A DNA stretch of 64,000 nucleotides from Corallococcus coralloides DSM 2259. Lineage in GTDB: Bacteria > Myxococcota > Myxococcia > Myxococcales > Myxococcaceae. The translations under genes and the position numbers were made by a program. Below, one piece after another: positions 2,245-62,077 of this stretch. The notes under the pieces were generated by a model. It saw nothing but the letters and a program-made list of their open reading frames with translations, made no database searches and was not told where the DNA came from. The stretch spans positions 6,102,328 through 6,166,327 of the forward strand of contig NC_017030.1 of the NCBI RefSeq assembly GCF_000255295.1, given 5' to 3'. Numbering within the stretch: position 1 is the first letter of the stretch; every line of letters begins with the position of its first letter.

Positions 2245-2319
2245 TGGAGCGGGAAAAGGGATTTGAACCCTCGACCCTCGCCTTGGCAAGGCGATGCTCT
2301 ACCGCTGAGCTATTCCCGC
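2245..2319 (-). tRNA. tRNA-Gly (anticodon GCC)
   Basis: The reverse complement reads GCGGGAATAGCTCAGCGGTAGAGCATCGCCTTGCCAAGGCGAGGGTCGAGGGTTCAAATCCCTTTTCCCGCTCCA. It has a 7-bp acceptor stem, D and T arms, a GCC anticodon loop and an encoded CCA. Confidence 0.9.
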
Positions 2320-2349: not shown

Positions 2350-2424
2350 TGGAGCGGGAAAAGGGATTTGAACCCTCGACCCTCGCCTTGGCAAGGCGAT
2401 GCTCTACCGCTGAGCTATTCCCGC
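2350..2424 (-). tRNA. tRNA-Gly (anticodon GCC), second identical copy
   Basis: An exact tandem duplicate of the 75-nt tRNA, 30 nt upstream of the first copy. Confidence 0.9.
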
Positions 2425-3210: not shown

Positions 3211-4968
3211 CTACCGGACCCCGAGTGCGATGAGGGCAAATCCTTCACCGCCCAGCTCCACCGCCGCCTTCAGTGTCTCCCCGCCAGCGGACGCCACGAG
3301 CGGCACCACGCGGGGCGTGAGGTTGCCCACCCAGCCCACCAGGTGCGTGAGGGGCACCGTCACCGGCTGGTCCATGGCCACCGGCACCGAGCGCAGCGGC
3401 CCCGTCAGGCTGAGCAGCACCCGCCCCTGCCCGCGCAGGTGCACCAGGTCCAGGTCCTGCGCCAGGTCCGACGGCACGCGGCCGTTCTCGAAGACGACGG
3501 GCTCCTCGAAGGCGAAGACGCACGCGTCGCGCAGGTAGACGGACTCGTCGTCCAGGGACACCGCCACCCACTGCCGCCCGGACACGGGCTCCAGGTGCAG
3601 CGTCCCCTGCCCCCGGGCGCGCACCATGGCCTGGTCGCCCTCGCCAAAGGGCTTGTCCGTAGCCCGGCCCCGGAAGCGCTTCATCTCCGGCTCGAAGGTG
3701 ACCGGGCCGCGCACGGCGATCAGCCCCTCCAGGCGCGTGAGCAGCTCGCCCTCCACCGCGAGCGTCAGGACGGACGCGCTCTGGGTGAAGGGCTGGCCCG
3801 GCGCCACGCCCGGCAGCGCCACCGAGGGCACCCAGGCGGTGAGCACGGGAGGATTCGAGCCCGTTGCAGTGTCAGGCGCGCGAGACGGCTCGGCGGCGCG
3901 GGTCGGCGGAATCGGCTCGGCGGGCCGGGTCGCTTCCGGTGGCTCGCTCGTGGCCAGCGCGGCGAAGGTCTCCGCGAAGGCGTCGCCAGGCTCCGACTCC
4001 AGGTCGGACGCGAGGACGGGCGGCTCCTCGGAGACCTCGATCTCCTCCGACACCGGCGTGGGGGGCAGCTCGTCGGCGACCTCGACATCGGCCCCGGAGG
4101 TGTCCGCGTCCGTGGTGGCGGCGAGCTCCGCGTCCTCCTCGAAGGTGCTCGCGCCGGCGGCGAGGCTGGGGTCCTCGTCCTCCTGGACCTGGGTCGCGGC
4201 GCGCGAGCTCAAGGCGTGGTCGTCCGTGGGCGCGGGCGGGCCTTCGTCCTCCGCGAAGCGCAGGTCGTCGTCCGACGCCTTCGCGGCGGCCTGAGGCGGC
4301 GGCGCGGCGGCGGTGCGGGGACTGCGCGGCGCCTCATCCAGACCGAACTGGGCACCCCAGTCGCTCTCGCCGGAAGCAGACGACGCGAGCACGGGCAGCG
4401 CGGCGGACTCCTCCTCCTCGCGCGGACGGGCCGGCGCGGGAGGCGCGGGCGGACGGCTGTAGCCCTCGCCAGCGATGGCGCGCGACATCTTCTCCGCCAT
4501 GGCGTCGCTGCCGGACAGCAGGAAGTGCTCGCGCGCGCGGCCGTACTCGCCCATCTGGGCGAAGGTCAGGCCCAGGTAGTTGTGGGCCTTCTTGTGGTCC
4601 GGGGCCAGGTCGGTGGCGGTCTCGAACTCGCGCGCCGCGCGCTGGAGCGCGTTCGTCTTCAGGTAGACGAGCCCCAGGTTCACGCGCAGCGTCGGGTCCA
4701 CCGGGTTGTCCCGCACGAGCATCTCGTACAGGTCGGCGGCGCGGTCGAAGAGGCCCAGCTTGAAATACGTCAGGCCCAGGAGGTTCTGGGCCTTCTCGTG
4801 GCGCGGCTGGAGCTGGTGCGCACGCTCCAGGAAGTCCTTCGCTTCGGTGACCTTGCCGGCGCCCAGCAGCTCGCTCCCGCGTTGGAGCTGCTGCAGGAAC
4901 TCCTCGTCAGCGGGGCCCGGCGGCTTCGTCCCCTTCGTGCGCGTCGTCATTCTCGGATGTGGGCTCAC
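3211..4968 (-). CDS. TPR-repeat protein with a Pro/Ala/acidic linker and a C-terminal beta-rich domain (possibly AIM24/DUF124-like)
   Basis: N-terminal TPR repeats are present. The C-terminal fold assignment is tentative. The start overlaps the upstream SLT gene by about 60 bp; an alternative start is at 4950. Confidence 0.55.
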   Translation of the reverse strand: MSPHPRMTTRTKGTKPPGPADEEFLQQLQRGSELLGAGKVTEAKDFLERAHQLQPRHEKAQNLLGLTYFKLGLFDRAADLYEMLVRDNPVDPTLRVNLGLVYLKTNALQRAAREFETATDLAPDHKKAHNYLGLTFAQMGEYGRAREHFLLSGSDAMAEKMSRAIAGEGYSRPPAPPAPARPREEEESAALPVLASSASGESDWGAQFGLDEAPRSPRTAAAPPPQAAAKASDDDLRFAEDEGPPAPTDDHALSSRAATQVQEDEDPSLAAGASTFEEDAELAATTDADTSGADVEVADELPPTPVSEEIEVSEEPPVLASDLESEPGDAFAETFAALATSEPPEATRPAEPIPPTRAAEPSRAPDTATGSNPPVLTAWVPSVALPGVAPGQPFTQSASVLTLAVEGELLTRLEGLIAVRGPVTFEPEMKRFRGRATDKPFGEGDQAMVRARGQGTLHLEPVSGRQWVAVSLDDESVYLRDACVFAFEEPVVFENGRVPSDLAQDLDLVHLRGQGRVLLSLTGPLRSVPVAMDQPVTVPLTHLVGWVGNLTPRVVPLVASAGGETLKAAVELGGEGFALIALGVR

Positions 4969-36815: not shown

Positions 36816-37833
36816 CTCCTCCGGACGTGGAAACAGCGGGCCCGTCCTGCACGTTGCGCGAATCCCCTTCGGCCAGGAAGCACGCCGCGGCGTGGCCTCC
36901 ACCCAGGGGATACAGCGGGGGTGACTCGCGGCGGCAGCGCTCCATCGCATGCGGGCAGCGCGGATGGAACGCGCAGCCGGTCGGCGGCGACAGGGGCGAA
37001 GGCGGCTCTCCCGGCAGCAGGAGCCGCGCGCGGGGACGCTCCGGATCCGGCACCGGCACCGCGGACAGCAGCGCCTGCGTGTACGGATGGCGAGGCCCTG
37101 CATACAGCGACCGGGACGGCGCCACCTCCACGATGCGGCCCAGGTACATCACCGCCACGCGCGTGGACACGTACTCCACGATCTTCAGGTCGTGCGCGAT
37201 GAAGACGTACGTGAGCCCGCGCTCGCGCTGCAGGTCCACCAGCAGGTTGACGATCTGCGCCTGGATGGAGACGTCCAGCGCGCTGATGGGCTCGTCCGCC
37301 ACCACCAGATCCGGGCGCAACGCGATGGCACGTGCAATGCCGATGCGTTGACGCTGGCCGCCGGAGAACTCGTGCGGGTAGCGCTGGCGCGCCTCGCGGG
37401 GCAGCCCCATGGCGTCGAGCAGCGCCAGCACCTCGTCCTCGCGCGCCTTCCCCTTCGCGAGCCCGTGGATGGCGAAGGGCTCCGCGAGGATGTCCCCCAC
37501 CGTCATGCGCGGGTTGAGCGACGCGTAGGGGTCCTGGAAGACGAGCTGCATCTGGCGGCGCAGCGGCCGCAACTCGCGCTGCGACAGGCCGGTCAGCTCG
37601 CGCCCGGCCACGCGGATGGAGCCGGAGGTCGGGTCGATGAGGCGCAGCACCGCGCGCCCCAACGTGCTCTTGCCGCAGCCGCTCTCCCCCACCAGGCCCA
37701 GCGTCTCTCCGCGGGCGACTTCGAAGGACACGCCGTCCACCGCGCGCACCGTGCCGCGCGTGCGGCCCAAGAGGCCGCCCTTCACCGGGAAGTGCACCTT
37801 CAGGTCGCGCACCTGGACCAGCGGTTCGCTCAT
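36778..37833 (-). CDS. oppF: Oligopeptide/dipeptide ABC transporter ATP-binding protein (OppF/DppF-like)
   Basis: Walker [10 protein letters not shown], signature FSGGQRQR, and the C-terminal oligopeptide-ABC Cys motif [17 protein letters not shown]. The start MSEPLVQ is internal to the ORF 36778..38313. Confidence 0.8.
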
Positions 37834-38840
37834 GGCGCGGGCACCGGATAATGGCAGGCGGCGGACTGGCCTCCGCGCTTCGGCTCCAGCGCGGGCGTGA
37901 CGCGGGCGCACAGCTCCGAGGCGCGGTCGCAGCGGTCGCGGAACGCGCACCCGGACGGCAGCGCGGTGAGCGACGGCACCATGCCGGGAATGGCCTTCAG
38001 GCGCTGACGCCCACCCTCCACCGCCGCGCCCGCGTCGTGCAGCGACGGGATGGAGCGCAAGAGGCCCGCCGTGTACGGGTGCGCGGGCCGCGCGAACAGC
38101 TCGCGCACCGGCGCCTGCTCCACGATGCGGCCCGCGTACATCACCACCACCGCGTCGCAGCTGCCCGCCACCACGCCCAGATCGTGGGTGATGAGCATCA
38201 CCGCCATGTTCCGCTCGGCCTGCAGGCGCTTGAGCAGTTCCAGGATCTGCGCCTGGATGGTGACGTCCAGCGCCGTGGTGGGCTCGTCCGCGATGAGCAG
38301 CGCCGGGTCGCACGCGAGCGCCATGGCGATCATCACGCGTTGGCGCATGCCGCCGGAGAGCTGATGCGGGTACGCGTCCACGCGCTCGCCGGGCGCCGGG
38401 ATGCCCACCTGCCGGAGCATCTCCACCGCGCGCTCACGCGCCTGCGCCCGGGTGGCGCCCAGGTGCAGCCGGACGCCTTCGCCAATCTGCTCGCCCACGG
38501 TGAACACCGGGTTGAGCGACGTCATGGGCTCCTGGAAGACCATGGCCACGTGCCGGCCGCGCACGCGCCGCATCTCCTTCTCCGGCAGCGCCAGCAGGTC
38601 CTCGCCCCGGAAGCGCACCTCGCCGCCCACCACGCGGCCGGGCGGCTGCGGAACGAGCCGCATCACCGACAGCGCCGTCAGGCTCTTGCCACAGCCGCTC
38701 TCCCCCACCACCCCCAGCGTGCCGCCGGGAGGAACGGTGAAGGACACGCCGTCCACCGCGCGCACCGTGCCGCGCGGGAGCGACAGCTGGGTGACGAGCC
38801 CCCGCACGTCCAGGAGCGGGGCCGGCGCGACGCCGGTCAC
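37830..38840 (-). CDS. oppD: Oligopeptide/dipeptide ABC transporter ATP-binding protein (OppD/DppD-like)
   Basis: Walker A GESGCGKS, signature LSGGMRQR, and C-terminal [21 protein letters not shown] overlap with oppF. Confidence 0.8.
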
Positions 38841-39847
38841 TTCTGGGCCAGCTCCTCCAGGAACTCCGCCTCCTGGATGAGCCCCTTGCGGATGAGCAGG
38901 CGGATGAGGCTCGCGACCATGCGCGCGGGCTTCACCTTCTCCGTGTCCAGGCTGGCCTCCTCGCCGCGCGAGATGCGGTCGATGTCGTCCAGCACCGCCA
39001 GGTCCTCCTCGGAGAAGTCCGGCTTGGGCGTGAGCGCCACGGACGGCTTCACGCCCTGCGCGGCGCCGCCAAAGAGCACCACCGGCACGCGCGGCTTGCT
39101 CGGGTCCTCAGGCTCCGAAGGAGGCGGAGGCGGCGGCGGACGGGCCGCGGCGGGCGGCGGCGGCGGACGCGGGGCCTTGGGGACCTTGGGACGGGGCGTG
39201 GAGCCCAGGATGTCCTCCAGCACCTCCGCGCCGTCGGCACCCGACTCGTTGGGCGGCGGCGGCGGCAGGTCCCAGTCCAGCGTCGGCGGCGCGGGCGGAC
39301 GCGGCGGCGTGGGCGCGCGCGCGGCGGCCGGAGGGGGCGGCGGCGACGGCAGGATGTCCGGCGAATCGTCCTCGTCCATGTCCATCGGTTCAGCCTCCAC
39401 GATGTCCAGGGGCTCGCCCCGGCCGCGCGACAGTGCCTGCTCCAGGTCATCTGGCGCGGCGACGAACACCTTGAGCGGCTTGCGCAGCTGGAAGCGCAGC
39501 TCGTCCACCAGCATCAGGTTGCCCGGGTCTTCCACCGCGACGTGGATCTTCTCGCTGCGGCCGTCCTGCTCCGACGCGAAGAGGAGCACCCGGTGCTCGG
39601 TCTGGAAGTCCATGGACACCAGCGAGGCCACCGCATGCGGGATGTACTCGGGGAGCTCCACGAACGGCAGCTCGTGCTGCGCCGCCAGCGCCCTCGCGAT
39701 GTCCCGGCCGGTGCACAGGCCCATGGACACCAGCACCTCACCCAGCTTGCGGCCCTGGCCGCGCCGTCCGGACGCGAGGGCCTGCTTCACCTGCTCGTCC
39801 GTCACCACTCCGGCCTGGACGAGGAGTTCACCAATCTTCTTGCGCAT
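38837..39847 (-). CDS. MshEN (T2SSE N-terminal) domain protein with Pro-rich linker
   Basis: N-terminal T2SE_Nter domain containing the c-di-GMP-binding-type motif [25 protein letters not shown]. It has no ATPase domain. Confidence 0.7.
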
Positions 39848-57473: not shown

Positions 57474-58532
57474 TCATGTTGCGTGAACGGCGCCTCTCTG
57501 GCCGCCCTCCTCCTTGTGTGACACGACGCGTTCCGCGAGCCGGACGGCGGACAGGGGGGCGCTGCCCTCCGCCTTGTTGTTGATGGTCACGAAGACGGGG
57601 CGGTCGCGCCGCACCGCGGCCATGCACACGCGGGCCAGCACGTCGCGGGTGCCCACGTCCTCGTCCACCAGCCGGTTGAACGGCGCGTAGCGGGCGTAGG
57701 CCTCCTCGTAGCCCAGGTTCGGCGGCAGCATCCAGCGCACCACCACGGCGCGGGCCTCGAAGGCGCGCGTGAGCTTCGCCTGCCGCGCGACGGGCGGCAT
57801 GTGGGCCCACACCGCGAGCACCGGGCTCACGCCCGTGTCCGCGAGCGCCTGGGCGAAGCCCTCCGTGAGCAGCTCCTCGTTGCGCACCTCCACCGCGTAC
57901 AGCGGCCCCCGGGGCAGCGCGGAGAAGAACGCGTGCAGCCGCTCCACGAAGCGGCCCGCGCCGCCCAATGCCGCGGGGTCCTGGGGCGGAAACTGGAAGA
58001 CGAGCGGCCCGGCCTTGTCGCCCAGCCCTTCCAGGAACGGCGCCACCACGTGGTCCACGGCGTAGGCCGCCTGGAGGAAGCGGTCGTTCACCTGTCCCCG
58101 GTGCGCGCCGTACCGGTCGTGCACGGGGAAGCGCGCCAGCGTGCAGGCCTCGTGGGCCTTCACCAGGAAGCGGAAGCCGTCCGGCACCTGCGCGGCGTAC
58201 TCGGCGAAGGTGGTGGCTGGCACCGGCGCGTAGAACGTCCGGTCGATGCCCACCGTGCGCAGCACCGGGTGGTGCGAGTAGGCAGCCAGGCCCTCGCGCG
58301 CCAGCTGGGTGGTGCTGGCCTCATGGTCGTAGACGAGCCCGTTCCAACCCGGGAAGGTCCACGACGACGTGCCCAGGTAGACGCCTCGCGGAAGCTGCTC
58401 GCCCAGCATGCGCAGGCTGTCGGACGGCTCGGCGGGCCCCACCGGCTGGGTCCTGCGCCGCGACGACGCCGGGGGCTCCTCCACCGCGCCGGTGAAGAGG
58501 TCGAACTGCGCGGGTCTTCGCGGTGCGCTCAT
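57474..58532 (-). CDS. DUF72 (UPF0759) family protein
   Basis: DUF72 pattern (YLGTSSWTFPGW...FLVKAH...YAVEVRN). The start MSAPRRP is internal to the ORF 57474..58733. Confidence 0.7.
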   Translation of the reverse strand: MSAPRRPAQFDLFTGAVEEPPASSRRRTQPVGPAEPSDSLRMLGEQLPRGVYLGTSSWTFPGWNGLVYDHEASTTQLAREGLAAYSHHPVLRTVGIDRTFYAPVPATTFAEYAAQVPDGFRFLVKAHEACTLARFPVHDRYGAHRGQVNDRFLQAAYAVDHVVAPFLEGLGDKAGPLVFQFPPQDPAALGGAGRFVERLHAFFSALPRGPLYAVEVRNEELLTEGFAQALADTGVSPVLAVWAHMPPVARQAKLTRAFEARAVVVRWMLPPNLGYEEAYARYAPFNRLVDEDVGTRDVLARVCMAAVRRDRPVFVTINNKAEGSAPLSAVRLAERVVSHKEEGGQRGAVHAT

Positions 58533-58696
58533 GCGTGCAGCTCCTCTCCCACGGCGGGAAGGCCCTGGGAGTAATCCCCGAGCCCAGACGATGCAGCAGG
58601 TTGCCCCGATTCGACGAGACGTTCCAGGTTTCCGGCACGCCCCCCAGGCGGACGGCCACGCACGGACAGTCCGCGTCCCTTCACCACGGTATGTGA

Positions 58697-58712
58697 TTGG
58701 ACCTATGTCCAA
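58697..58712. promoter_or_regulatory. Palindrome TTGGAC-ctat-GTCCAA upstream of the PAS-LuxR regulator gene; putative operator
   Basis: A perfect 6-bp inverted repeat with a 4-nt spacer in an AT-rich intergenic region. The same half-sites recur upstream of cheA. Confidence 0.35.
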
Positions 58713-58788
58713 ATGCAAATGCAGGCGCCTCACTGTAAGATGCTCAAACCGAGCAATTCAGCACTACTCATGTAAAGCTTGAACGGGA

Positions 58789-59733
58789 TTGCAACGGCCG
58801 GGGGGCCCCATGGACTGGTCGTTGACCGCATCGCTGCTCGCGGAGCGGGACACGCGCCCCATCGTCGTGATGGACCGGCGCGGCCGCATTGAGTTGGCGA
58901 ACGGCGCTTTCACGTCGCTGCTGGGCCGGCCCCGTGAGGAGTTGTTGGGGCGCCGCTGGACGGACGTCTGCACGCCCCGTGAGCATGGACGCAAGGTGGG
59001 ACAGGCGCTGCGGGCCATCTTCACCAGCGCGGAGACCCGGCTGGAGACGGAGGTGCTCACGCGCGACGGCGAGCGGCTGTCGGTGGAGCTGGACGTGGCC
59101 GCCGTGGGCCGCCCTCCCCTGCGGCTGGTGGCCATCATCACGCGCGCCTCTCCGCCCCTCTCCGTCCCCGAGCGCACCGCCGCCCCGGAGCCGGCCCGGG
59201 CCCAGGGTCCCCACCGGGACCTGAGCTACGAAATCTCCACCGAGCTGTCGTCATTCGGGACGCTCAAGGCGGTGTGGACCTCCGGGGAGGCGCGGCAGGA
59301 GGAGATGGTGGGCCAGCCGTGCTTCGGCGCCTTCGCGCACCGGGACGCACCCTGTCTGGACTGCCCGCTGACGATGGCGGCCCCCGCCTCCTGGCCGCAC
59401 ACCATCGTGCGGCAGGCCTCCGAGCACGCCGATGGCTATGAGGTCGTCACCGCCACGCCCACGGGCGCCGGCACCGCGCGCGTCAGCGTGCACACCATCG
59501 GAGATGAGACCCTCAGCGGCCTCTTCGAGGCGAAGGTGCGGCGCATGGCGAACGCCGCGCGGCTGTCCGAACGGGAAGGCGATGTGTTGCGATATCTCGC
59601 GCTCGGCCGCTCGCCGACCGACATTTCGACCGTGCTAGGAATTACCGAGCGCACTGTGAAATTCCACCAGACCAACCTCCTCCGGAAGCTGGGCGCGGAG
59701 ACGCGCTACGACCTGCTCCGCCTGTTCTTCTGA
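58789..59733 (+). CDS. PAS domain-containing LuxR family transcriptional regulator
   Basis: N-terminal PAS-like regions and a C-terminal LuxR/GerE HTH (EREGDVLRYLALGRSPTDISTVLGITERTVKFHQTNLLRKLG). An alternative ATG start is at 58810. Confidence 0.75.
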   Translation: MQRPGGPMDWSLTASLLAERDTRPIVVMDRRGRIELANGAFTSLLGRPREELLGRRWTDVCTPREHGRKVGQALRAIFTSAETRLETEVLTRDGERLSVELDVAAVGRPPLRLVAIITRASPPLSVPERTAAPEPARAQGPHRDLSYEISTELSSFGTLKAVWTSGEARQEEMVGQPCFGAFAHRDAPCLDCPLTMAAPASWPHTIVRQASEHADGYEVVTATPTGAGTARVSVHTIGDETLSGLFEAKVRRMANAARLSEREGDVLRYLALGRSPTDISTVLGITERTVKFHQTNLLRKLGAETRYDLLRLFF

Positions 59734-59795
59734 TCAGGGCGCCTGCCCTCCGGGACAGCTTTCACTCCGTTGACTTTGGAGGATGCTGGGACTTC

Positions 59796-59807
59796 GACTC
59801 CGGAGTC
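59796..59807. promoter_or_regulatory. Perfect 12-bp palindrome GACTCCGGAGTC between the LuxR gene and cheA
   Basis: Self-complementary and loopless, so more likely a protein-binding site than a hairpin. Confidence 0.25.
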
Positions 59808-59879
59808 TTGTGGGTCGGGGGGGCCGTTGCCCATGGGCAGCGCCAGTCAAATCCGTCTCATCAAACACATACAGTCTGT

Positions 59880-59895
59880 CTGGACTTTTGTCCAA
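59880..59895. promoter_or_regulatory. Palindrome TTGGAC-tttt-GTCCAA upstream of cheA; putative operator, second copy of the motif
   Basis: The half-sites are identical to those at 58697..58712. It lies about 45 nt upstream of the cheA start. Confidence 0.35.
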
Positions 59896-59938
59896 GGGCG
59901 TCCTGTCCGTGAGTGACACTCCGGGCTGGGACGACGTG

Positions 59939-62077
59939 ATGCGGGAGTTCCTCCTCGAGTCCCGCGAGCACGTGCAGATCATCGAGGCGACGGTGCTGGA
60001 GCTGGAGGCGCAGCCGGGCTCGCAGCCATTGCTGGCGCAGCTGTTCCGGTCCCTGCACACCGTGAAGGGCACCTGCGGCTTCCTGGGCTTCAGCCGCCTG
60101 GAGGCGCTGATGCACGCCGCCGAGGAGATGCTCGGCCTGGCGCGCGACCGGCGCCTGGTGCTGGACCGCGAGCGCGTGTCCACGCTGCTGGCAGCGGCGG
60201 ACGCGGCGCGTGGCACGCTGGAGCACATCGAGGCGACGGGGCTGGAGCCCGCGGTGGACCACTCCGCGCTGCTCGCTCGCATGGCGGGCGCGGCGGTAGG
60301 CTCCGCGCCGCAGGAGGTGTCCGAGCCCCTGACGCCTCCGGGCGCCGTGCCCTGGCGCGGCGCCGCGACCGGGGTGGATTCCAAGCTGCGCGTGGACGTG
60401 GCGCTGCTGGACCGGTTGATGAACCTGATGGGCGAGCTGGTGCTGGCGCGCAACCGCATCCTCCAGTGCGCGGCCTCGCCCACGCCGGGCGCGGACCTGC
60501 TCACCGCGTCGCAGCGGCTGGATGTCGTCACCACGCAGGTCCAGCAGGTGGTGATGAAGACGCGGCTCCAGCCGGTGGGCCAGGTGTGGAACCGCTTTCC
60601 CCGGCTGGTGCGGGAGCTTGCGCACGGGTGCGGCAAGCAGGTGCGGCTGCAGCTGCAGGGCGCGGACACGGAGCTGGACAAGACGCTGGTGGAGGCGCTG
60701 CATGATCCGCTCACCCACCTCTTGCGCAACGCCGTGGACCACGGCGTGGAGACGCCCGAGCAGCGCGTTGCCGCGGGCAAGCCGCCCGTGGGGTGCCTGA
60801 CGCTGAGCGCGTCGCATGAAGGCGGGCTCGTGCACCTGGGCATGTCCGACGACGGCGCGGGCATCGACGTGCAGCGCGTGCGGCAGGTCGCGGTGCAGCG
60901 GGGCCTGCTCACGGCCGACCAGGCGGCGCGGATGCCGGACGCGGACGCGCTGATGCTCATCTTCATGCCGGGCTTCAGCACCGCGGAGCGCGTCACGTCG
61001 CTGTCCGGCCGGGGCGTGGGCATGGACGTGGTGCGCTCGCAGGTGGAGCGCATTGGCGGCACCGTGGAGGTGCACAGCCGGCCCGGTCAGGGCACGACGT
61101 TCACCCTGAAGATTCCCCTCACGCTGGCCATCATCCCGGCGCTGCTCGTCACCTGCCGGGGAGACCGCTACGCGCTGCCGCAGGCCTCCCTGCGGGAGGT
61201 GGTGTTCCTGGAGCCGGCCCAGGCGCGCAAGGACATCACCCGCATCCAGGGCGCGTGCGTCCTGCGGCTGCGCGGAGAGCTGCTGCCGCTGGTGGTGCTC
61301 GCCGCCGAGCTGGGCGTGGGGCCCGGTATGCCGGACCTGGACGAGGGCGCCACCGTCGTCGTGCTCCAGGCCGGTGAGCGCACCTTCGGGCTGTGGGTGG
61401 ACGCCATCCACGACACGGAGGAGATCGTCGTCAAGCCGCTGTGGAAGCACCTGAAGGGGCTGGCCTGCTACGCGGGGGCGACGGTGCTGGGCGACGGGCG
61501 CGTGGCGCTCATCCTGGACGCCATGGGCCTGGGCCGCCGCGTGGGCACCGCCACCGAGGCGCAGGCCCAGGTCGTCATTCCGGAGGCCGCGGCGGAAGCA
61601 CCAACCCCAGAGGAGCCTCGCGAGCGGGTGCTGCTGTGCCGCAATGGCGCGGAGGGCCGCATTGCCATTCCGCTGTCGCGCGTGGCCCGGCTGGAGGAGC
61701 TGCCCGCGTCGGACGTGGAGCGGATGAGCGGAGGCATGGAGATGGCGCGCTACCACGGGCAGCTGCTGCCGCTGGTGCACGTGGCCTCCGTGCTGGAGGC
61801 GAGGCCCCGCGCGACGGAGCGGATCACGCAACACCTCCAGGTCACCCTGGGTGAGTCGCTGTCCGTCGTCGTCACCCAGCACGCGGACACGCGTGTGGGG
61901 CTGGTGGTGGACGCCATCCTCGACGTCGCGGAGGTGGAGCTCGCGCTCCAGCGGGAGACGCGCCGCCCGGGAGTGCTGGGCTCCATGGTGGTGCAGGCCC
62001 GGGCCACCGAGTTCCTGGACGTGGAGGGCACCGTGCGCGCCGTGCACCCGGAGCTGCTGACAAGAGGTGCGCCATGA
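59939..62077 (+). CDS. cheA: Chemotaxis histidine kinase CheA
   Basis: Hpt/P1 domain with phospho-His (LFRSLHTVKGTCG), HATPase_c domain, and two C-terminal CheW-like domains. The start MREFLLE is internal to the ORF 59783..62077. Confidence 0.85.
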   Translation: MREFLLESREHVQIIEATVLELEAQPGSQPLLAQLFRSLHTVKGTCGFLGFSRLEALMHAAEEMLGLARDRRLVLDRERVSTLLAAADAARGTLEHIEATGLEPAVDHSALLARMAGAAVGSAPQEVSEPLTPPGAVPWRGAATGVDSKLRVDVALLDRLMNLMGELVLARNRILQCAASPTPGADLLTASQRLDVVTTQVQQVVMKTRLQPVGQVWNRFPRLVRELAHGCGKQVRLQLQGADTELDKTLVEALHDPLTHLLRNAVDHGVETPEQRVAAGKPPVGCLTLSASHEGGLVHLGMSDDGAGIDVQRVRQVAVQRGLLTADQAARMPDADALMLIFMPGFSTAERVTSLSGRGVGMDVVRSQVERIGGTVEVHSRPGQGTTFTLKIPLTLAIIPALLVTCRGDRYALPQASLREVVFLEPAQARKDITRIQGACVLRLRGELLPLVVLAAELGVGPGMPDLDEGATVVVLQAGERTFGLWVDAIHDTEEIVVKPLWKHLKGLACYAGATVLGDGRVALILDAMGLGRRVGTATEAQAQVVIPEAAAEAPTPEEPRERVLLCRNGAEGRIAIPLSRVARLEELPASDVERMSGGMEMARYHGQLLPLVHVASVLEARPRATERITQHLQVTLGESLSVVVTQHADTRVGLVVDAILDVAEVELALQRETRRPGVLGSMVVQARATEFLDVEGTVRAVHPELLTRGAP

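What the first reader, a model, noticed from the sequence alone, without database searches (positions are those of the whole stretch)
58697..59895. Shared palindromic motif TTGGAC-N4-GTCCAA upstream of both the PAS-LuxR regulator gene and cheA
Two sites with identical 6-bp half-sites and a 4-nt spacer: TTGGAC-ctat-GTCCAA at 58697..58712 in the AT-rich leader of the PAS-LuxR gene, and TTGGAC-tttt-GTCCAA at 59880..59895 about 45 nt before cheA. LuxR/NarL-type HTH dimers bind inverted repeats of this size. This suggests autoregulation of the regulator and direct control of the cheA-cheW-mcp operon. A perfect 12-bp palindrome GACTCCGGAGTC (59796..59807) lies between them.
Basis: seen in the sequence. 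Interest (0 to 1): 0.55.

Follow-up and report, generated by a model that had tools for sequence, protein, structure and literature searches.

The report
Two look-alike palindromes, probably different jobs
Two similar short palindromes flank a PAS-LuxR regulator gene beside a Corallococcus aerotaxis operon, but relatives suggest that the one before cheA is a conserved stem-loop rather than a shared operator, while the one before the regulator, and a better-conserved third palindrome, are plausible but unproven LuxR-type binding sites.

Summary
Site 1 (58697..58712) is TTGGAC-CTAT-GTCCAA. Site 2 (59880..59895) is CTGGAC-TTTT-GTCCAA, so its first base is C, not T. Site 2 ends 13 nt before the cheA GTG start, not about 45 nt.

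The exact core TGGAC-N4-GTCCA occurs only at these two places in 64 kb, against 0.1 expected.

The window is Corallococcus. The operon is the published Cc-5 putative aerotaxis cluster.

In 13 orthologous loci the regulator's recognition helix is essentially invariant, yet site 2 is not conserved as sequence. Other lineages carry unrelated palindromes at the same spot (TGCGCG-CCTT-CGCGCA, CCTGCG-CGTC-CGCAGG, CGCGCGA-GCGT-TCGCGCG). All keep a 4-nt loop directly 5' of the ribosome-binding site. That is compensatory change, so site 2 is most likely a leader stem-loop.

Site 1 is not a conserved structure. It keeps its outer TTG...CAA in one subclade and lies 23 nt upstream of a conserved -10-like TAAGAT. 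Its format matches boxes bound by CviR-like LuxR domains, which are the closest solved relatives of this HTH.

A better-conserved candidate operator for cheA is CTGCCC-TCCG-GGACAG (59743..59758). Its half-sites are invariant and its spacer varies.

Nothing here is experimentally tested. Interest is modest.

The parts
58697..58712 (.). Site 1: TTGGAC-CTAT-GTCCAA, a perfect 16-bp dyad and candidate LuxR-type (autoregulatory) box upstream of the regulator gene
   Evidence: Orthologues keep TTG...GTCCAA but vary at inner left-half positions and in the spacer. It is diverged, displaced or lost in L008, L015 and L012. It is not a conserved RNA structure: -8.0 kcal/mol here against -1.9 in L001.
58736..58741 (+). 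TAAGAT, a -10-like hexamer 23 nt downstream of site 1 (inferred promoter element of the regulator gene)
   Evidence: nA..nT is kept in all lineages as TAAGAT, TAAGCT, TAAACT or CAAAAT. The consensus scan does not call it a promoter because the -35 is weak. The role is inferred; no transcription start data exist.
58810..59733 (+). Regulator gene: PAS, a Cys-containing middle domain and a LuxR/GerE HTH, 307 aa
   Evidence: Pfam. Orthologues are 79-95% identical within Corallococcus. The HTH is closest to CviR, SdiA, QscR and RhlR. The recognition helix is invariant except for a window-specific A288T.
59722..59737 (.). CTGTTC-TTCT-GATCAG, a skeleton match overlapping the regulator's last codons and stop codon, 21 bp from the next box
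   Evidence: Most of its conservation can be explained by coding (LFF-stop), so the evidence is weak.
59743..59758 (.). Box 3: CTGCCC-TCCG-GGACAG, an exact match to the CviR consensus CTGNCCNNNNGGNCAG and the best-conserved candidate operator for the cheA operon
   Evidence: It is the only exact match in 64 kb. In all 13 cheA-bearing lineages the half-sites are CT(T/G)CCC and GGACAG, with 11 of 12 columns invariant, while the 4-nt spacer varies: TCCG, TGGG, CGCG, CGCA, CGTG, CGGG.
59782..59787 (+). GATGCT, a -10-like hexamer 23 nt downstream of box 3 (inferred cheA promoter element)
   Evidence: ATGCTG is invariant in alignment A3. The 23-nt spacing equals that between site 1 and TAAGAT (coordinates). 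The role is inferred; no transcription start data exist.
59796..59807 (+).
   Evidence: It is not strictly conserved: L003 has an insertion, and L007, L008, L014 and L016 have uncompensated changes. It may form a 5'-proximal hairpin or pair with ACTCCGG in cheA codons 4-6.
59812..59846 (+). Invariant 35-nt block GGGTCGGGGGGGCCGTTGCCCATGGGCAGCGCCAG, containing a 9-bp hairpin
   Evidence: It is identical in 12 lineages apart from one base in L012. Helix 6 is 100% paired but never varies. There is no Rfam match. It is unique in the window. Its function is unexplained.
59880..59895 (+). Site 2: CTGGAC-TTTT-GTCCAA. Its 14-nt core, 59881..59894, is a 5-bp stem with a 4-nt loop directly 5' of the cheA ribosome-binding site
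   Evidence: Other lineages carry different stems with the same loop size and position. Of 78 pair cells, 64 are paired, against 15-33 when the partner is slid. Nine of 13 lineages have a perfect stem of at least 5 bp with a 4-nt loop, each with p 0.002-0.04. Hairpin energies are -7 to -12.7 kcal/mol.
59894..59898 (+). AAGGG, a Shine-Dalgarno-like purine run abutting the hairpin
   Evidence: A purine-rich run follows the hairpin in every lineage. The role is inferred.
59909..62077 (+). cheA (Hpt, dimerisation, HATPase and two CheW domains), first gene of the Cc-5 cluster
   Evidence: Pfam. The start codon is supported by the codon-position pattern 3/2/9. The cluster is described in PMC6194562. 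The downstream MCP carries Bac_globin, PAS and MCPsignal domains.

Best explanation
The two look-alike palindromes are most likely two different kinds of element.

(1) Site 2 (core 59881..59894) is this lineage's version of a small stem-loop. Nearly every cheA-bearing Corallococcus lineage keeps one with its loop centre 21-23 nt upstream of the cheA GTG, abutting the ribosome-binding site. The stem sequences are unrelated between lineages, so structure is selected, not sequence. It most likely acts in the cheA mRNA leader, on translation initiation or mRNA stability. It is not a conserved operator. The structure conservation is shown; the RNA-level role is inferred.

(2) Site 1 (58697..58712) is a lineage-restricted 16-bp dyad. 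It has the YTG-N10-CAR format used by quorum-sensing-type LuxR HTH dimers. It lies 23 nt upstream of a conserved -10-like TAAGAT, so it would be centred near -43.5, next to a weak -35. That is the usual geometry of a class II LuxR-type activator box, so autoregulation by the adjacent PAS-LuxR protein is plausible. This is inferred.

(3) If this regulator controls the cheA-cheW-mcp operon directly, the better candidate operator is a third dyad, CTGCCC-TCCG-GGACAG (59743..59758). It matches the CviR consensus exactly, has invariant half-sites and a variable spacer in all lineages, and has the same 23-nt spacing to an invariant -10-like (G/C)ATGCT. That would give a structured leader of about 115 nt containing site 2. 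This is inferred.
For: Site 2 as structure.
- Different stems occupy the same place: TGGAC/GTCCA, TGCGCG/CGCGCA, CCTGCG/CGCAGG and CGCGCGA/TCGCGCG. All have a 4-nt loop.
- Stem pairs 1, 2, 4 and 5 change on both sides. 64 of 78 cells are paired, against 15-33 of 78 with slid partners.
- Nine of 13 lineages have a perfect stem of at least 5 bp, individually p 0.002-0.04.
- Hairpins are stable in four lineage types.
- The surrounding ~50 nt is the fastest-evolving part of the intergenic region.
- The recognition helix TERTVKFHQ(A/T)NLLRKL is invariant across these lineages, so a sequence-specific operator for it should not change this much.
- The + strand RNA of the leader folds with z = -1.9, the - strand with z = +0.3.

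Site 1 as box.
- It is a perfect dyad unique in the window.
- The outer TTG and GTCCAA are kept in 10 lineages while inner left positions and the spacer vary.
- The 23-nt distance to the conserved nA..nT hexamer is constant, also in L016.
- It is not a conserved fold.

HTH and precedent.
- The closest solved relatives are CviR, SdiA, QscR and RhlR.
- The CviR box is CTGNCCNNNNGGNCAG (PMC12114271).
- The PAS-LuxR box is a 16-bp palindrome at the -35 (PMC9774167).

Box 3.

Clustering.
- Four skeleton matches lie in 465 nt, against 0.053 expected; 0 of 20000 shuffles reach 4.
Against: - No transcription start, binding or expression data exist. Both -10 hexamers are my inference, and the consensus promoter scan found nothing.
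- The hairpin is weak (3-4 bp) in L003, L019, L014 and L015. In L002, L004 and L007 the perfect 5-bp stem uses a different arm pair, AGTCC-N4-GGACT.
- The lineages are closely related, so the independent stem variants number about four.
- Apart from one G.U pair in L014, dyad symmetry cannot by itself separate an RNA hairpin from DNA-level symmetry.
- Site 1 lies inside a ~45-nt conserved block, so its conservation is not specific to the dyad. It is diverged, displaced or lost in L008, L015 and L012, although the regulator is kept there.
- The skeleton was defined after seeing the sites. The four-fold clustering is strongest in the window itself; orthologues have 1-3 matches, because box 3 reads CTT rather than CTG elsewhere.
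- Distant family members with the same recognition helix share no dyad.
Confidence: 0.4

Rival explanations
1. Both TGGAC-N4-GTCCA sites are operators of the adjacent PAS-LuxR dimer. Site 1 would give autoregulation. Site 2 would give direct control of cheA-cheW-mcp, which at that position would have to be repression or a roadblock next to the ribosome-binding site.
For: - The exact 14-mer occurs only at these two sites in 64 kb, against 0.1 expected.
- A shared dyad in two adjacent intergenic regions arises in 3 of 5000 shuffles.
- Both fit YTGNNC-N4-GNNCAR, and the HTH is CviR-like.
- The TGGAC arm of site 2 is invariant in the eight distinct lineages of the window's subclade.
Against: - The site 2 sequence is not conserved where the recognition helix is.
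- Its right half decays to GTCAA or GTCAT in 5 of 8 subclade lineages without loss of the operon.
- Only the window and L006/L020 fit the skeleton at site 2.
- In L016, site 1 persists while site 2 is an unrelated GC palindrome.
- Site 2 ends 13 nt from the start codon, which leaves no room for a promoter downstream of it.
Confidence: 0.2
2. Coincidence. Site 2 is a structural hairpin that happens to resemble site 1 in this lineage. Site 1 is simply part of a conserved promoter region and is not a binding site of this regulator. Box 3 is conserved for another reason.
For: - The window holds 50 close pairs of identical 5+5 palindromes against 43±7 in shuffles, so such pairs are easy to find.
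- The perfect symmetry of site 1 exists only in the window. Relatives have uncompensated mismatches (TTGAAC, TTGGCC, TTGGCG).
- The flanks of site 1 (TCTGTGA, ATGCAAAC) are at least as conserved as the dyad.
- No dyad is shared by distant family members.
- The regulator persists in L005 without the che cluster.
Against: - Skeleton matches cluster around the regulator gene: 4 observed against 0.053 expected.
- Box 3 shows the classical invariant half-site and variable spacer pattern and matches the consensus of the closest characterised HTH exactly.
- Site 1 and box 3 have the identical 23-nt spacing to -10-like hexamers.
Confidence: 0.25
3. The dyads are operators of a different dimeric transcription factor encoded elsewhere, for example an oxygen- or redox-responsive regulator, and not of the adjacent PAS-LuxR protein.
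For: - The core GGAC-N4-GTCC equals the core of the DosR hypoxia box TTSGGGACTWWAGTCCCSAA (PMC2275270).
- The operon is a putative aerotaxis system.
- Adjacency alone does not identify the binding protein.
Against: - The outer DosR positions (TTS/SAA, two bp further out) are absent.
- DosR was not among the solved relatives of this HTH.
- There is the same lack of conservation at site 2.
- No candidate factor was identified in the window.
Confidence: 0.1
4. Site 2 is an intrinsic terminator or attenuator ending the regulator's transcript.
For: It is a stable short hairpin downstream of the regulator gene. Alternative pairings of the central arm exist in some lineages.
Against: - There is no U-tract, and the terminator scan found nothing.
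- It lies ~150 nt after the stop codon and 13 nt before the cheA start.
- The stem is only 5-7 bp.
Confidence: 0.03

Closest known systems
CviR box and lux-box-type operators of quorum-sensing LuxR-family regulators (CTGNCCNNNNGGNCAG; Stauff & Bassler, as quoted in PMC12114271)
   Same: Both are 16-bp dyads with 6-bp half-sites and a 4-bp spacer, with outer (C/T)TG...CA(G/A). The regulator's HTH is most similar to CviR, and its recognition helix ERTVKFHQ(A/T)NLLRKL is close to CviR's ERTVKFHVANVIRKL. Box 3 (59743..59758) matches the consensus at all 12 specified positions. The inferred box centre near -43 resembles lux-box geometry (established knowledge of LuxR-type class II activation).
   Different: The regulator has no autoinducer-binding domain; it has PAS plus a Cys3 middle domain. 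Sites 1 and 2 deviate at position 5/12 (A/T instead of C/G) and at the outermost bases. Binding is untested. Site 2 is next to the start codon, not at a -35.
PAS-LuxR regulators of Streptomyces (PimM, PteF and others) and their 16-bp box CTVGGGAWWTCCCBAG at the -35 (PMC9774167)
   Same: The domain order is an N-terminal PAS and a C-terminal LuxR HTH. The operator is a 16-bp palindrome overlapping the -35. The outer CTVG...CBAG resembles the CTGG...CCAA of site 2.
   Different: No match to the PimM consensus exists in the window even with 3 mismatches. This protein has 307 aa with an extra Cys-containing domain. It is myxobacterial and sits next to a chemosensory operon, not a polyketide cluster. 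Homology beyond the Pfam domains was not tested.
DosR/DevR hypoxia box TTSGGGACTWWAGTCCCSAA of Mycobacterium tuberculosis (PMC2275270)
   Same: The core GGAC-N4-GTCC is identical, and the T-rich spacer of site 2 (TTTT against TWWA) is similar. It is bound by a NarL/LuxR-family HTH in an oxygen-related regulon.
   Different: The DosR half-sites are two bp longer (TTSGGGAC). DosR is a response regulator with a receiver domain. It was not among the solved relatives of this HTH. The resemblance is at the motif level only.
Short stem-loops in bacterial mRNA leaders next to the Shine-Dalgarno sequence (translation-modulating or stabilising hairpins)
   Same: Stem of 5-7 bp, 4-nt loop, fixed position directly 5' of the purine-rich ribosome-binding site, with structure kept through compensatory change.
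   Different: No described family fits, and there is no Rfam match. The transcript ends are unknown. No effector such as a protein, small RNA or temperature has been identified.
Cc-5 chemosensory cluster of Corallococcus coralloides (Sharma, Parales & Singer 2018, PMC6194562)
   Same: The gene order is the same, CheA-CheW-MCP with the PAS and globin MCP. This is the operon downstream of the finding.
   Different: The paper describes the proteins only. It contains no occurrence of 'LuxR', 'promoter' or 'operon', so the adjacent regulator and the intergenic elements are not treated there.

Membership tests
LuxR-type (lux-box / CviR-box) operator | 16-20-bp dyad, 6-bp half-sites with a 4-bp spacer in the 16-bp core | tested here: met
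   Site 1 is a perfect 6-4-6 dyad. Site 2 has 5 of 6 symmetric pairs. Box 3 has 5 of 6.
LuxR-type (lux-box / CviR-box) operator | Outer CTG...CAG triplets spaced by 10 bp | tested here: inconclusive
   Site 1 has TTG...CAA, site 2 has CTG...CAA, and box 3 has CTG...CAG in the window but CTT...CAG in all orthologues.
LuxR-type (lux-box / CviR-box) operator | A regulator with a matching LuxR-type HTH is present | tested here: met
   The GerE domain scores E 3e-15. The closest solved relatives are CviR, SdiA, QscR and RhlR.
LuxR-type (lux-box / CviR-box) operator | Half-sites conserved among orthologous promoters when the recognition helix is conserved | tested here: inconclusive
   Site 2: not met, because the sequence is replaced by unrelated palindromes. 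Site 1: partly met, because the outer triplets are kept in one subclade and lost or displaced in L008, L015 and L012. Box 3: met in all 13 lineages.
LuxR-type (lux-box / CviR-box) operator | Position centred near -42 of a promoter with a weak -35 (activator), or overlapping the core promoter (repressor) | tested here: inconclusive
   Site 1 and box 3 each lie 23 nt upstream of conserved -10-like hexamers, but these are inferred and no start-site data exist. Site 2 ends 13 nt from the GTG, so it cannot be an activator site.
LuxR-type (lux-box / CviR-box) operator | Demonstrated binding by the regulator | not testable with these tools
   This needs EMSA, footprinting or ChIP.
PAS-LuxR regulators (PimM type) | N-terminal PAS plus C-terminal LuxR HTH | tested here: met
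   Pfam PAS_9/PAS_4 covers residues 17-109 and GerE covers 251-305.
PAS-LuxR regulators (PimM type) | Operator fitting CTVGGGAWWTCCCBAG | tested here: not met
   There are 0 matches in the window with up to 3 mismatches.
PAS-LuxR regulators (PimM type) | Two-domain architecture without further domains; pathway-specific regulator of polyketide clusters | tested here: not met
   A region of ~140 residues with an invariant C-x10-C-x2-C lies between PAS and HTH. The genomic context is a chemosensory operon.
cis-acting mRNA leader stem-loop | Base pairing kept through changes on both sides of pairs | tested here: met
   Stem pairs 1, 2, 4 and 5 have two to four standard pair types each. 64 of 78 cells are paired, against 15-33 of 78 with slid partners. 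There are about four independent stem variants.
cis-acting mRNA leader stem-loop | Fixed position relative to the ribosome-binding site and start codon | tested here: met
   The loop centre lies 21-23 nt from the GTG in all 13 lineages, and a purine run follows directly.
cis-acting mRNA leader stem-loop | Lies within the transcript; strand-specific signals such as G.U pairs | tested here: inconclusive
   There is one G.U pair (L014). The leader folds better on the + strand (z -1.9 against +0.3). The transcript ends are unknown.
Intrinsic terminator | GC-rich stem followed by a U-tract | tested here: not met
   The scan found none in 58400..60100. AGGGCG follows the stem.
DosR box | 20-bp TTSGGGACTWWAGTCCCSAA, bound by a receiver-domain NarL-family regulator | tested here: not met
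   Only the GGAC-N4-GTCC core is shared. The regulator has no receiver domain. DosR is not among the relatives of this HTH.
Described RNA families (Rfam 15) | A covariance-model match | tested here: not met
   The only hit is a chance miRNA match at E 0.22 inside the coding region.

The most novel reading that the evidence does not exclude
A Corallococcus-specific sensor-regulator (PAS, a Cys3 domain and a quorum-sensing-type LuxR HTH without an autoinducer domain) would activate its own promoter and the horizontally acquired Cc-5 aerotaxis operon. It would do so through CviR-like 16-bp boxes centred near -43. The operon's ~115-nt leader would be a genus-specific structured cis-regulatory RNA that gates cheA translation. 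That RNA would comprise the invariant 35-nt hairpin block, a long-range helix over the start codon and the covarying site 2 hairpin. The result would be transcriptional and translational control of a chemosensory system by oxygen or redox state.
Probability: 0.15. Interest if true: 0.5.

Novelty: new member of a known kind. Interest (0 to 1): 0.3.

Why it matters
The Cc-5 cluster has been proposed, from sequence alone, as the aerotaxis system of Corallococcus (PMC6194562). Nothing is known about its regulation.

This analysis gives three concrete, separately testable elements:
- a candidate autoregulatory box (site 1);
- a conserved CviR-consensus box upstream of cheA (box 3);
- a covarying hairpin at the ribosome-binding site (site 2).

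It also gives a candidate sensor-regulator with a conserved Cys3 motif.

It is a cautionary example as well. Two near-identical palindromes in neighbouring intergenic regions can be statistically striking in one genome and still not be the same kind of element once relatives are compared.

The scope is narrow, one genus, and all functional statements are inferred.

Tried and rejected
- **Rfam scan** of 58400..60100 at E up to 1: nothing relevant.
- **Sigma-70 and terminator consensus scans:** none found. I also looked by eye for sigma-54 (GG-N10-GC) and ECF-type (GGAAC...CGT) elements around both sites and in the invariant block. None fits, and this was not a tool test.
- **Reading the region upstream of GTG 59909 as a CheA N-terminal extension from ATG 59783:** rejected. 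L003 has a 1-nt insertion, the lineages differ in length there, and the codon-position pattern starts at the GTG.
- **MAFFT alignment of the hairpin region:** it put the GC-rich lineages one column out of register. I therefore made loop-centred tables in Python. One search had L016 mis-centred; this is corrected.
- **Local hairpin GACUUCG-ACUC-CGGAGUC and the 12-bp palindrome:** not well conserved.
- **Long-range helix between the G-rich block and the start-codon region:** only one-sided GU/GC changes and one compensatory pair, so it is suggestive at most.
- **Metagenome scan with the invariant 21-mer, to find more lineages:** four hits, all in the same conserved stretch of non-orthologous contigs that reads as coding sequence by eye.
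- **Distant homologues (32-40% identity) in Anaeromyxobacter, Nannocystineae and metagenomes:** not next to che genes, and no dyad shared beyond chance.
- **Second exact CTKCCC-N4-GGACAG at 59563..59578 (-):** it lies in the codons for LSEREG and varies at synonymous sites in orthologues, so it is a coincidence.
- **PimM consensus:** absent.
Full report
**What is in the sequence**

Site 1 at 58697..58712 is TTGGACCTATGTCCAA, a perfect 6-4-6 palindrome. Site 2 at 59880..59895 is CTGGACTTTTGTCCAA. Its first base is C, so the two sites share perfect 5-bp half-sites (TGGAC/GTCCA) and the right 6-mer, but not 'identical 6-bp half-sites'. GACTCCGGAGTC is at 59796..59807.

- a divergent DUF72 gene at 57474..58532 on the minus strand;
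- a 307-aa PAS plus GerE/LuxR regulator at 58810..59733;
- CheA (Hpt, dimerisation, HATPase and two CheW domains);
- CheW.

The cheA start is GTG 59909. Gene callers in related assemblies use it. Variable columns in the first 20 codons fall 3/2/9 on codon positions 1/2/3. Site 2 therefore ends 13 nt before the start codon, directly 5' of a purine run (AAGGG), and not ~45 nt before it.

**Chance**

The exact 14-mer TGGACNNNNGTCCA occurs only at these two sites in 64 kb, against 0.10 expected. Dinucleotide shuffles of the two intergenic regions share any 5-bp-half-site palindrome with equal spacer in 3 of 5000 trials.

A window-wide count shows how much room there is to find such things. There are 50 close pairs of identical 5+5 palindromes, against 43±7 in shuffles, almost all of them GC-only words. 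The coincidence is notable but not decisive.

**Origin and context**

Orthologous loci are all Corallococcus, with 79-95% protein identity. Synteny is SNF2 helicase, Smr, a hypothetical gene, DUF72, then the regulator, cheA, cheW and an MCP carrying Bac_globin, PAS and MCPsignal domains.

This is the Cc-5 'putative aerotaxis' cluster described in silico by Sharma, Parales and Singer (PMC6194562). That paper contains no occurrence of 'LuxR', 'promoter' or 'operon'.

The next relatives of the regulator are only 32-40% identical. They include Anaeromyxobacter, a Nannocystineae MAG and metagenome sequences, and they are not next to che genes. One Corallococcus locus (L005, C. interemptor) keeps the regulator and site 1 but lacks the che cluster.

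**Site 2 across lineages**

In the window's own subclade the left arm TGGAC is invariant. The right arm is GTCCA in three lineages, GTCAA in four and GTCAT in one.

In the other lineages the same position holds quite different palindromes:
- TGCGCG-CCTT-CGCGCA in L008;
- GCGCG-CCTT-CGCGT or -CGCGG in L014 and L015;
- CCTGCG-CGTC-CGCAGG in L012;
- CGCGCGA-GCGT-TCGCGCG in L016.

All have a 4-nt loop whose centre lies 21-23 nt from the GTG, followed at once by the purine run.

A loop-centred table gives 64 of 78 cells paired for the six innermost pairs, against 15-33 of 78 when the partner is slid by 1-3 positions. Pairs 1, 2, 4 and 5 each show two to four standard pair types.

Nine of 13 lineages have a perfect stem of at least 5 bp with exactly a 4-nt loop in the 32 nt before the ribosome-binding site. 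Each has a shuffle p of 0.002-0.04. In L002, L004 and L007 that stem is formed by the central arm with an upstream arm, AGTCC-N4-GGACT. L003, L019, L014 and L015 have only 3-4 bp. Hairpin energies are -7 to -12.7 kcal/mol in four lineage types.

The segment around the hairpin is the fastest-evolving part of the intergenic region, yet the dyad symmetry persists.

Meanwhile the recognition helix of the regulator, TERTVKFHQ(A/T)NLLRKLGAETR, is invariant in all 12 orthologues, apart from a window-specific A288T. A sequence-specific operator of that helix should not change from TGGAC to GCGCG.

I conclude that structure, not sequence, is selected at site 2. The most economical reading is a stem-loop in the cheA leader next to the ribosome-binding site. 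Whether it acts on translation, stability or processing is not shown.

**Site 1 across lineages**

Ten lineages of the window's subclade keep TTG...GTCCAA. They vary at left-half positions 4-6 (GAC, AAC, GCC, GCG) and throughout the spacer, without compensation.

As RNA it folds well only in the window: -8.0 kcal/mol (z -3.4) against -1.9 (z +0.1) in L001. It is therefore not a conserved structure.

In other lineages:
- L016 has GGAC-GTTT-GTCC;
- L008 has a diverged copy, TTGGCC-CTGC-GCGCAA, 58 nt further upstream;
- L015 has a degenerate copy;
- L012 has none;
- L014 has a non-homologous intergenic region with a different perfect palindrome, TTGAGC-CATG-GCTCAA.

The dyad is embedded in a ~45-nt conserved block. 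It sits exactly 23 nt upstream of a hexamer conserved as TAAGAT, TAAGCT, TAAACT or CAAAAT (A at position 2, T at position 6). If that hexamer is the -10, the box is centred near -43.5 beside a weak -35. This is an inference. The consensus scan calls no promoter.

**What the HTH would be expected to bind**

The closest solved relatives of the HTH are quorum-sensing-type LuxR proteins:
- CviR, E 7.5e-10, whose helix reads ISERTVKFHVANVIRKL;
- SdiA;
- QscR;
- RhlR;
- LasR.

CviR's ideal site is the 16-bp palindrome CTGNCCNNNNGGNCAG (PMC12114271). Streptomyces PAS-LuxR regulators bind the 16-bp CTVGGGAWWTCCCBAG at the -35 (PMC9774167). The PimM consensus itself is absent from the window.

**A third, better-conserved dyad**

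Searching the skeleton YTGNNC-N4-GNNCAR gives six matches in the window, against 6.7 expected. Four of them lie between 58697 and 59895:
- site 1;
- CTGTTC-TTCT-GATCAG at 59722, which overlaps the stop codon;
- CTGCCC-TCCG-GGACAG at 59743;
- site 2.

In shuffles of the two intergenic segments (465 nt) the expectation is 0.053, and 0 of 20000 shuffles reach four.

The 59743..59758 dyad is the only exact match to the CviR consensus in 64 kb. In all 13 cheA-bearing lineages its half-sites are CT(T/G)CCC and GGACAG, with 11 of 12 columns invariant. The four spacer columns vary: TCCG, TGGG, CGCG, CGCA, CGTG, CGGG. It lies 23 nt upstream of an invariant (G/C)ATGCT, the same spacing as site 1 to TAAGAT.

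This makes it a better candidate operator for the che operon than site 2.

There are three caveats:
- The skeleton was defined after the fact.
- The orthologues read CTT, not CTG, so they score only 1-3 skeleton matches.
- The box could be conserved for other reasons.

**The rest of the regulator-cheA intergenic region**

It contains a 35-nt block (59812..59846) that is invariant apart from one base in L012. The block includes a 9-bp hairpin that never varies, so covariation gives no information.

RNAalifold proposes a long-range helix between GACTCCGGAGTC plus the G-run and the stretch from the ribosome-binding site through cheA codon 6. Ten of its pairs vary on one side only (GU to GC), one pair is compensatory and a few are broken.

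The + strand folds better than shuffles (z -1.9); the - strand does not (z +0.3). There is no Rfam match.

I regard a structured leader as plausible but unproven. The invariant block remains unexplained.

**Family-wide test**

Homologues at 32-40% identity keep the same recognition helix (TVKFHQxN.L.KLG) and an invariant C-x10-C-x2-C motif in the middle domain. Their flanking regions share no dyad beyond chance. One of them, L026, has GTCC-N4-GGAC inside an 18-nt repeat on both sides of the gene. This test neither supports nor refutes the operator idea.

**Verdict**

- A LuxR-type box upstream of the regulator is plausible.
- The cheA-proximal palindrome is most likely a conserved stem-loop.
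- The conserved candidate operator for cheA lies elsewhere, at 59743..59758.

All functional statements are inferences from sequence comparison among closely related genomes. These are new instances of known kinds of elements in a narrow taxon, so interest is modest.

Noticed in passing
window 59812..59846: A 35-nt block, GGGTCGGGGGGGCCGTTGCCCATGGGCAGCGCCAG, is identical in 12 Corallococcus lineages apart from one base in L012, although its flanks and synonymous coding sites vary. It contains a 9-bp hairpin. There is no Rfam match and its function is unknown.
   Followed up: partly
window 58810..59733 (protein residues ~130-245): The middle domain of the regulator has an invariant C171-x10-C182-x2-C185-P motif, kept in homologues down to 32% identity. 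No Pfam domain covers it. It may be a metal, Fe-S or redox-sensing site.
   Followed up: partly
window 59671..59673 (codon 288 of the regulator) and 59745: The window's regulator alone has Thr at position 288 of the recognition helix (HQTNLL), where 11 other Corallococcus orthologues have Ala. The window alone also reads CTG, not CTT, in the first half-site of the 59743 box.
   Followed up: no
L005 4925..8921 (Corallococcus interemptor AB047A): The regulator gene and site 1 are kept, but the Cc-5 che cluster is absent downstream. Homology to the other loci ends inside the 59743-type box.
   Followed up: partly
window 59563..59578 (- strand): CTTCCCGTTCGGACAG has the same half-sites as the 59743 box, but it lies in the codons for LSEREG of the regulator. 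Orthologues vary at its synonymous sites, so it is probably a coincidence.
   Followed up: yes
window 2245..2319 and 2350..2424 (- strand): Two tandem tRNA-Gly(GCC) genes explain a repeated palindrome, CGCCTTGGCAAGGCG, that turned up in the palindrome census.
   Followed up: yes
window 37742..37761 and 38758..38777: The 20-mer CGCGCGCACCGTGCCGCGCG is repeated 1016 bp apart, inside two adjacent 336-aa ORFs on the minus strand (37830..38840 and 38837..39847). These are probably tandem paralogues.
   Followed up: no
L018 2660..2840 (Anaeromyxobacter dehalogenans CP000251.1): Two tandem homologues of the regulator are preceded by four direct repeats of CACCC(A/G)GAG(T/C)CGTT. The repeats lie next to a divergent BTAD/AAA_16 regulator gene.
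   Followed up: no
L026 2195..2215 and 3375..3395: An 18-nt direct repeat, CCCCGTCCATG(A/G)GGACA, containing GTCC-N4-GGAC lies both upstream and downstream of a distant homologue of the regulator.
   Followed up: partly
L014 2836..2851: This Myxococcaceae MAG has an extra 235-aa gene between DUF72 and the regulator. It also has a perfect 16-bp palindrome, TTGAGCCATGGCTCAA, 177 nt upstream of the regulator start.
   Followed up: no
L022-L025 (metagenome contigs): The invariant 21-mer GTTGCCCATGGGCAGCGCCAG also occurs in four metagenome contigs unrelated to this locus. All four hits lie in one stretch that is conserved among those contigs and reads, by eye, as coding sequence on the opposite strand (...LALPMGN...).
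   Followed up: yes
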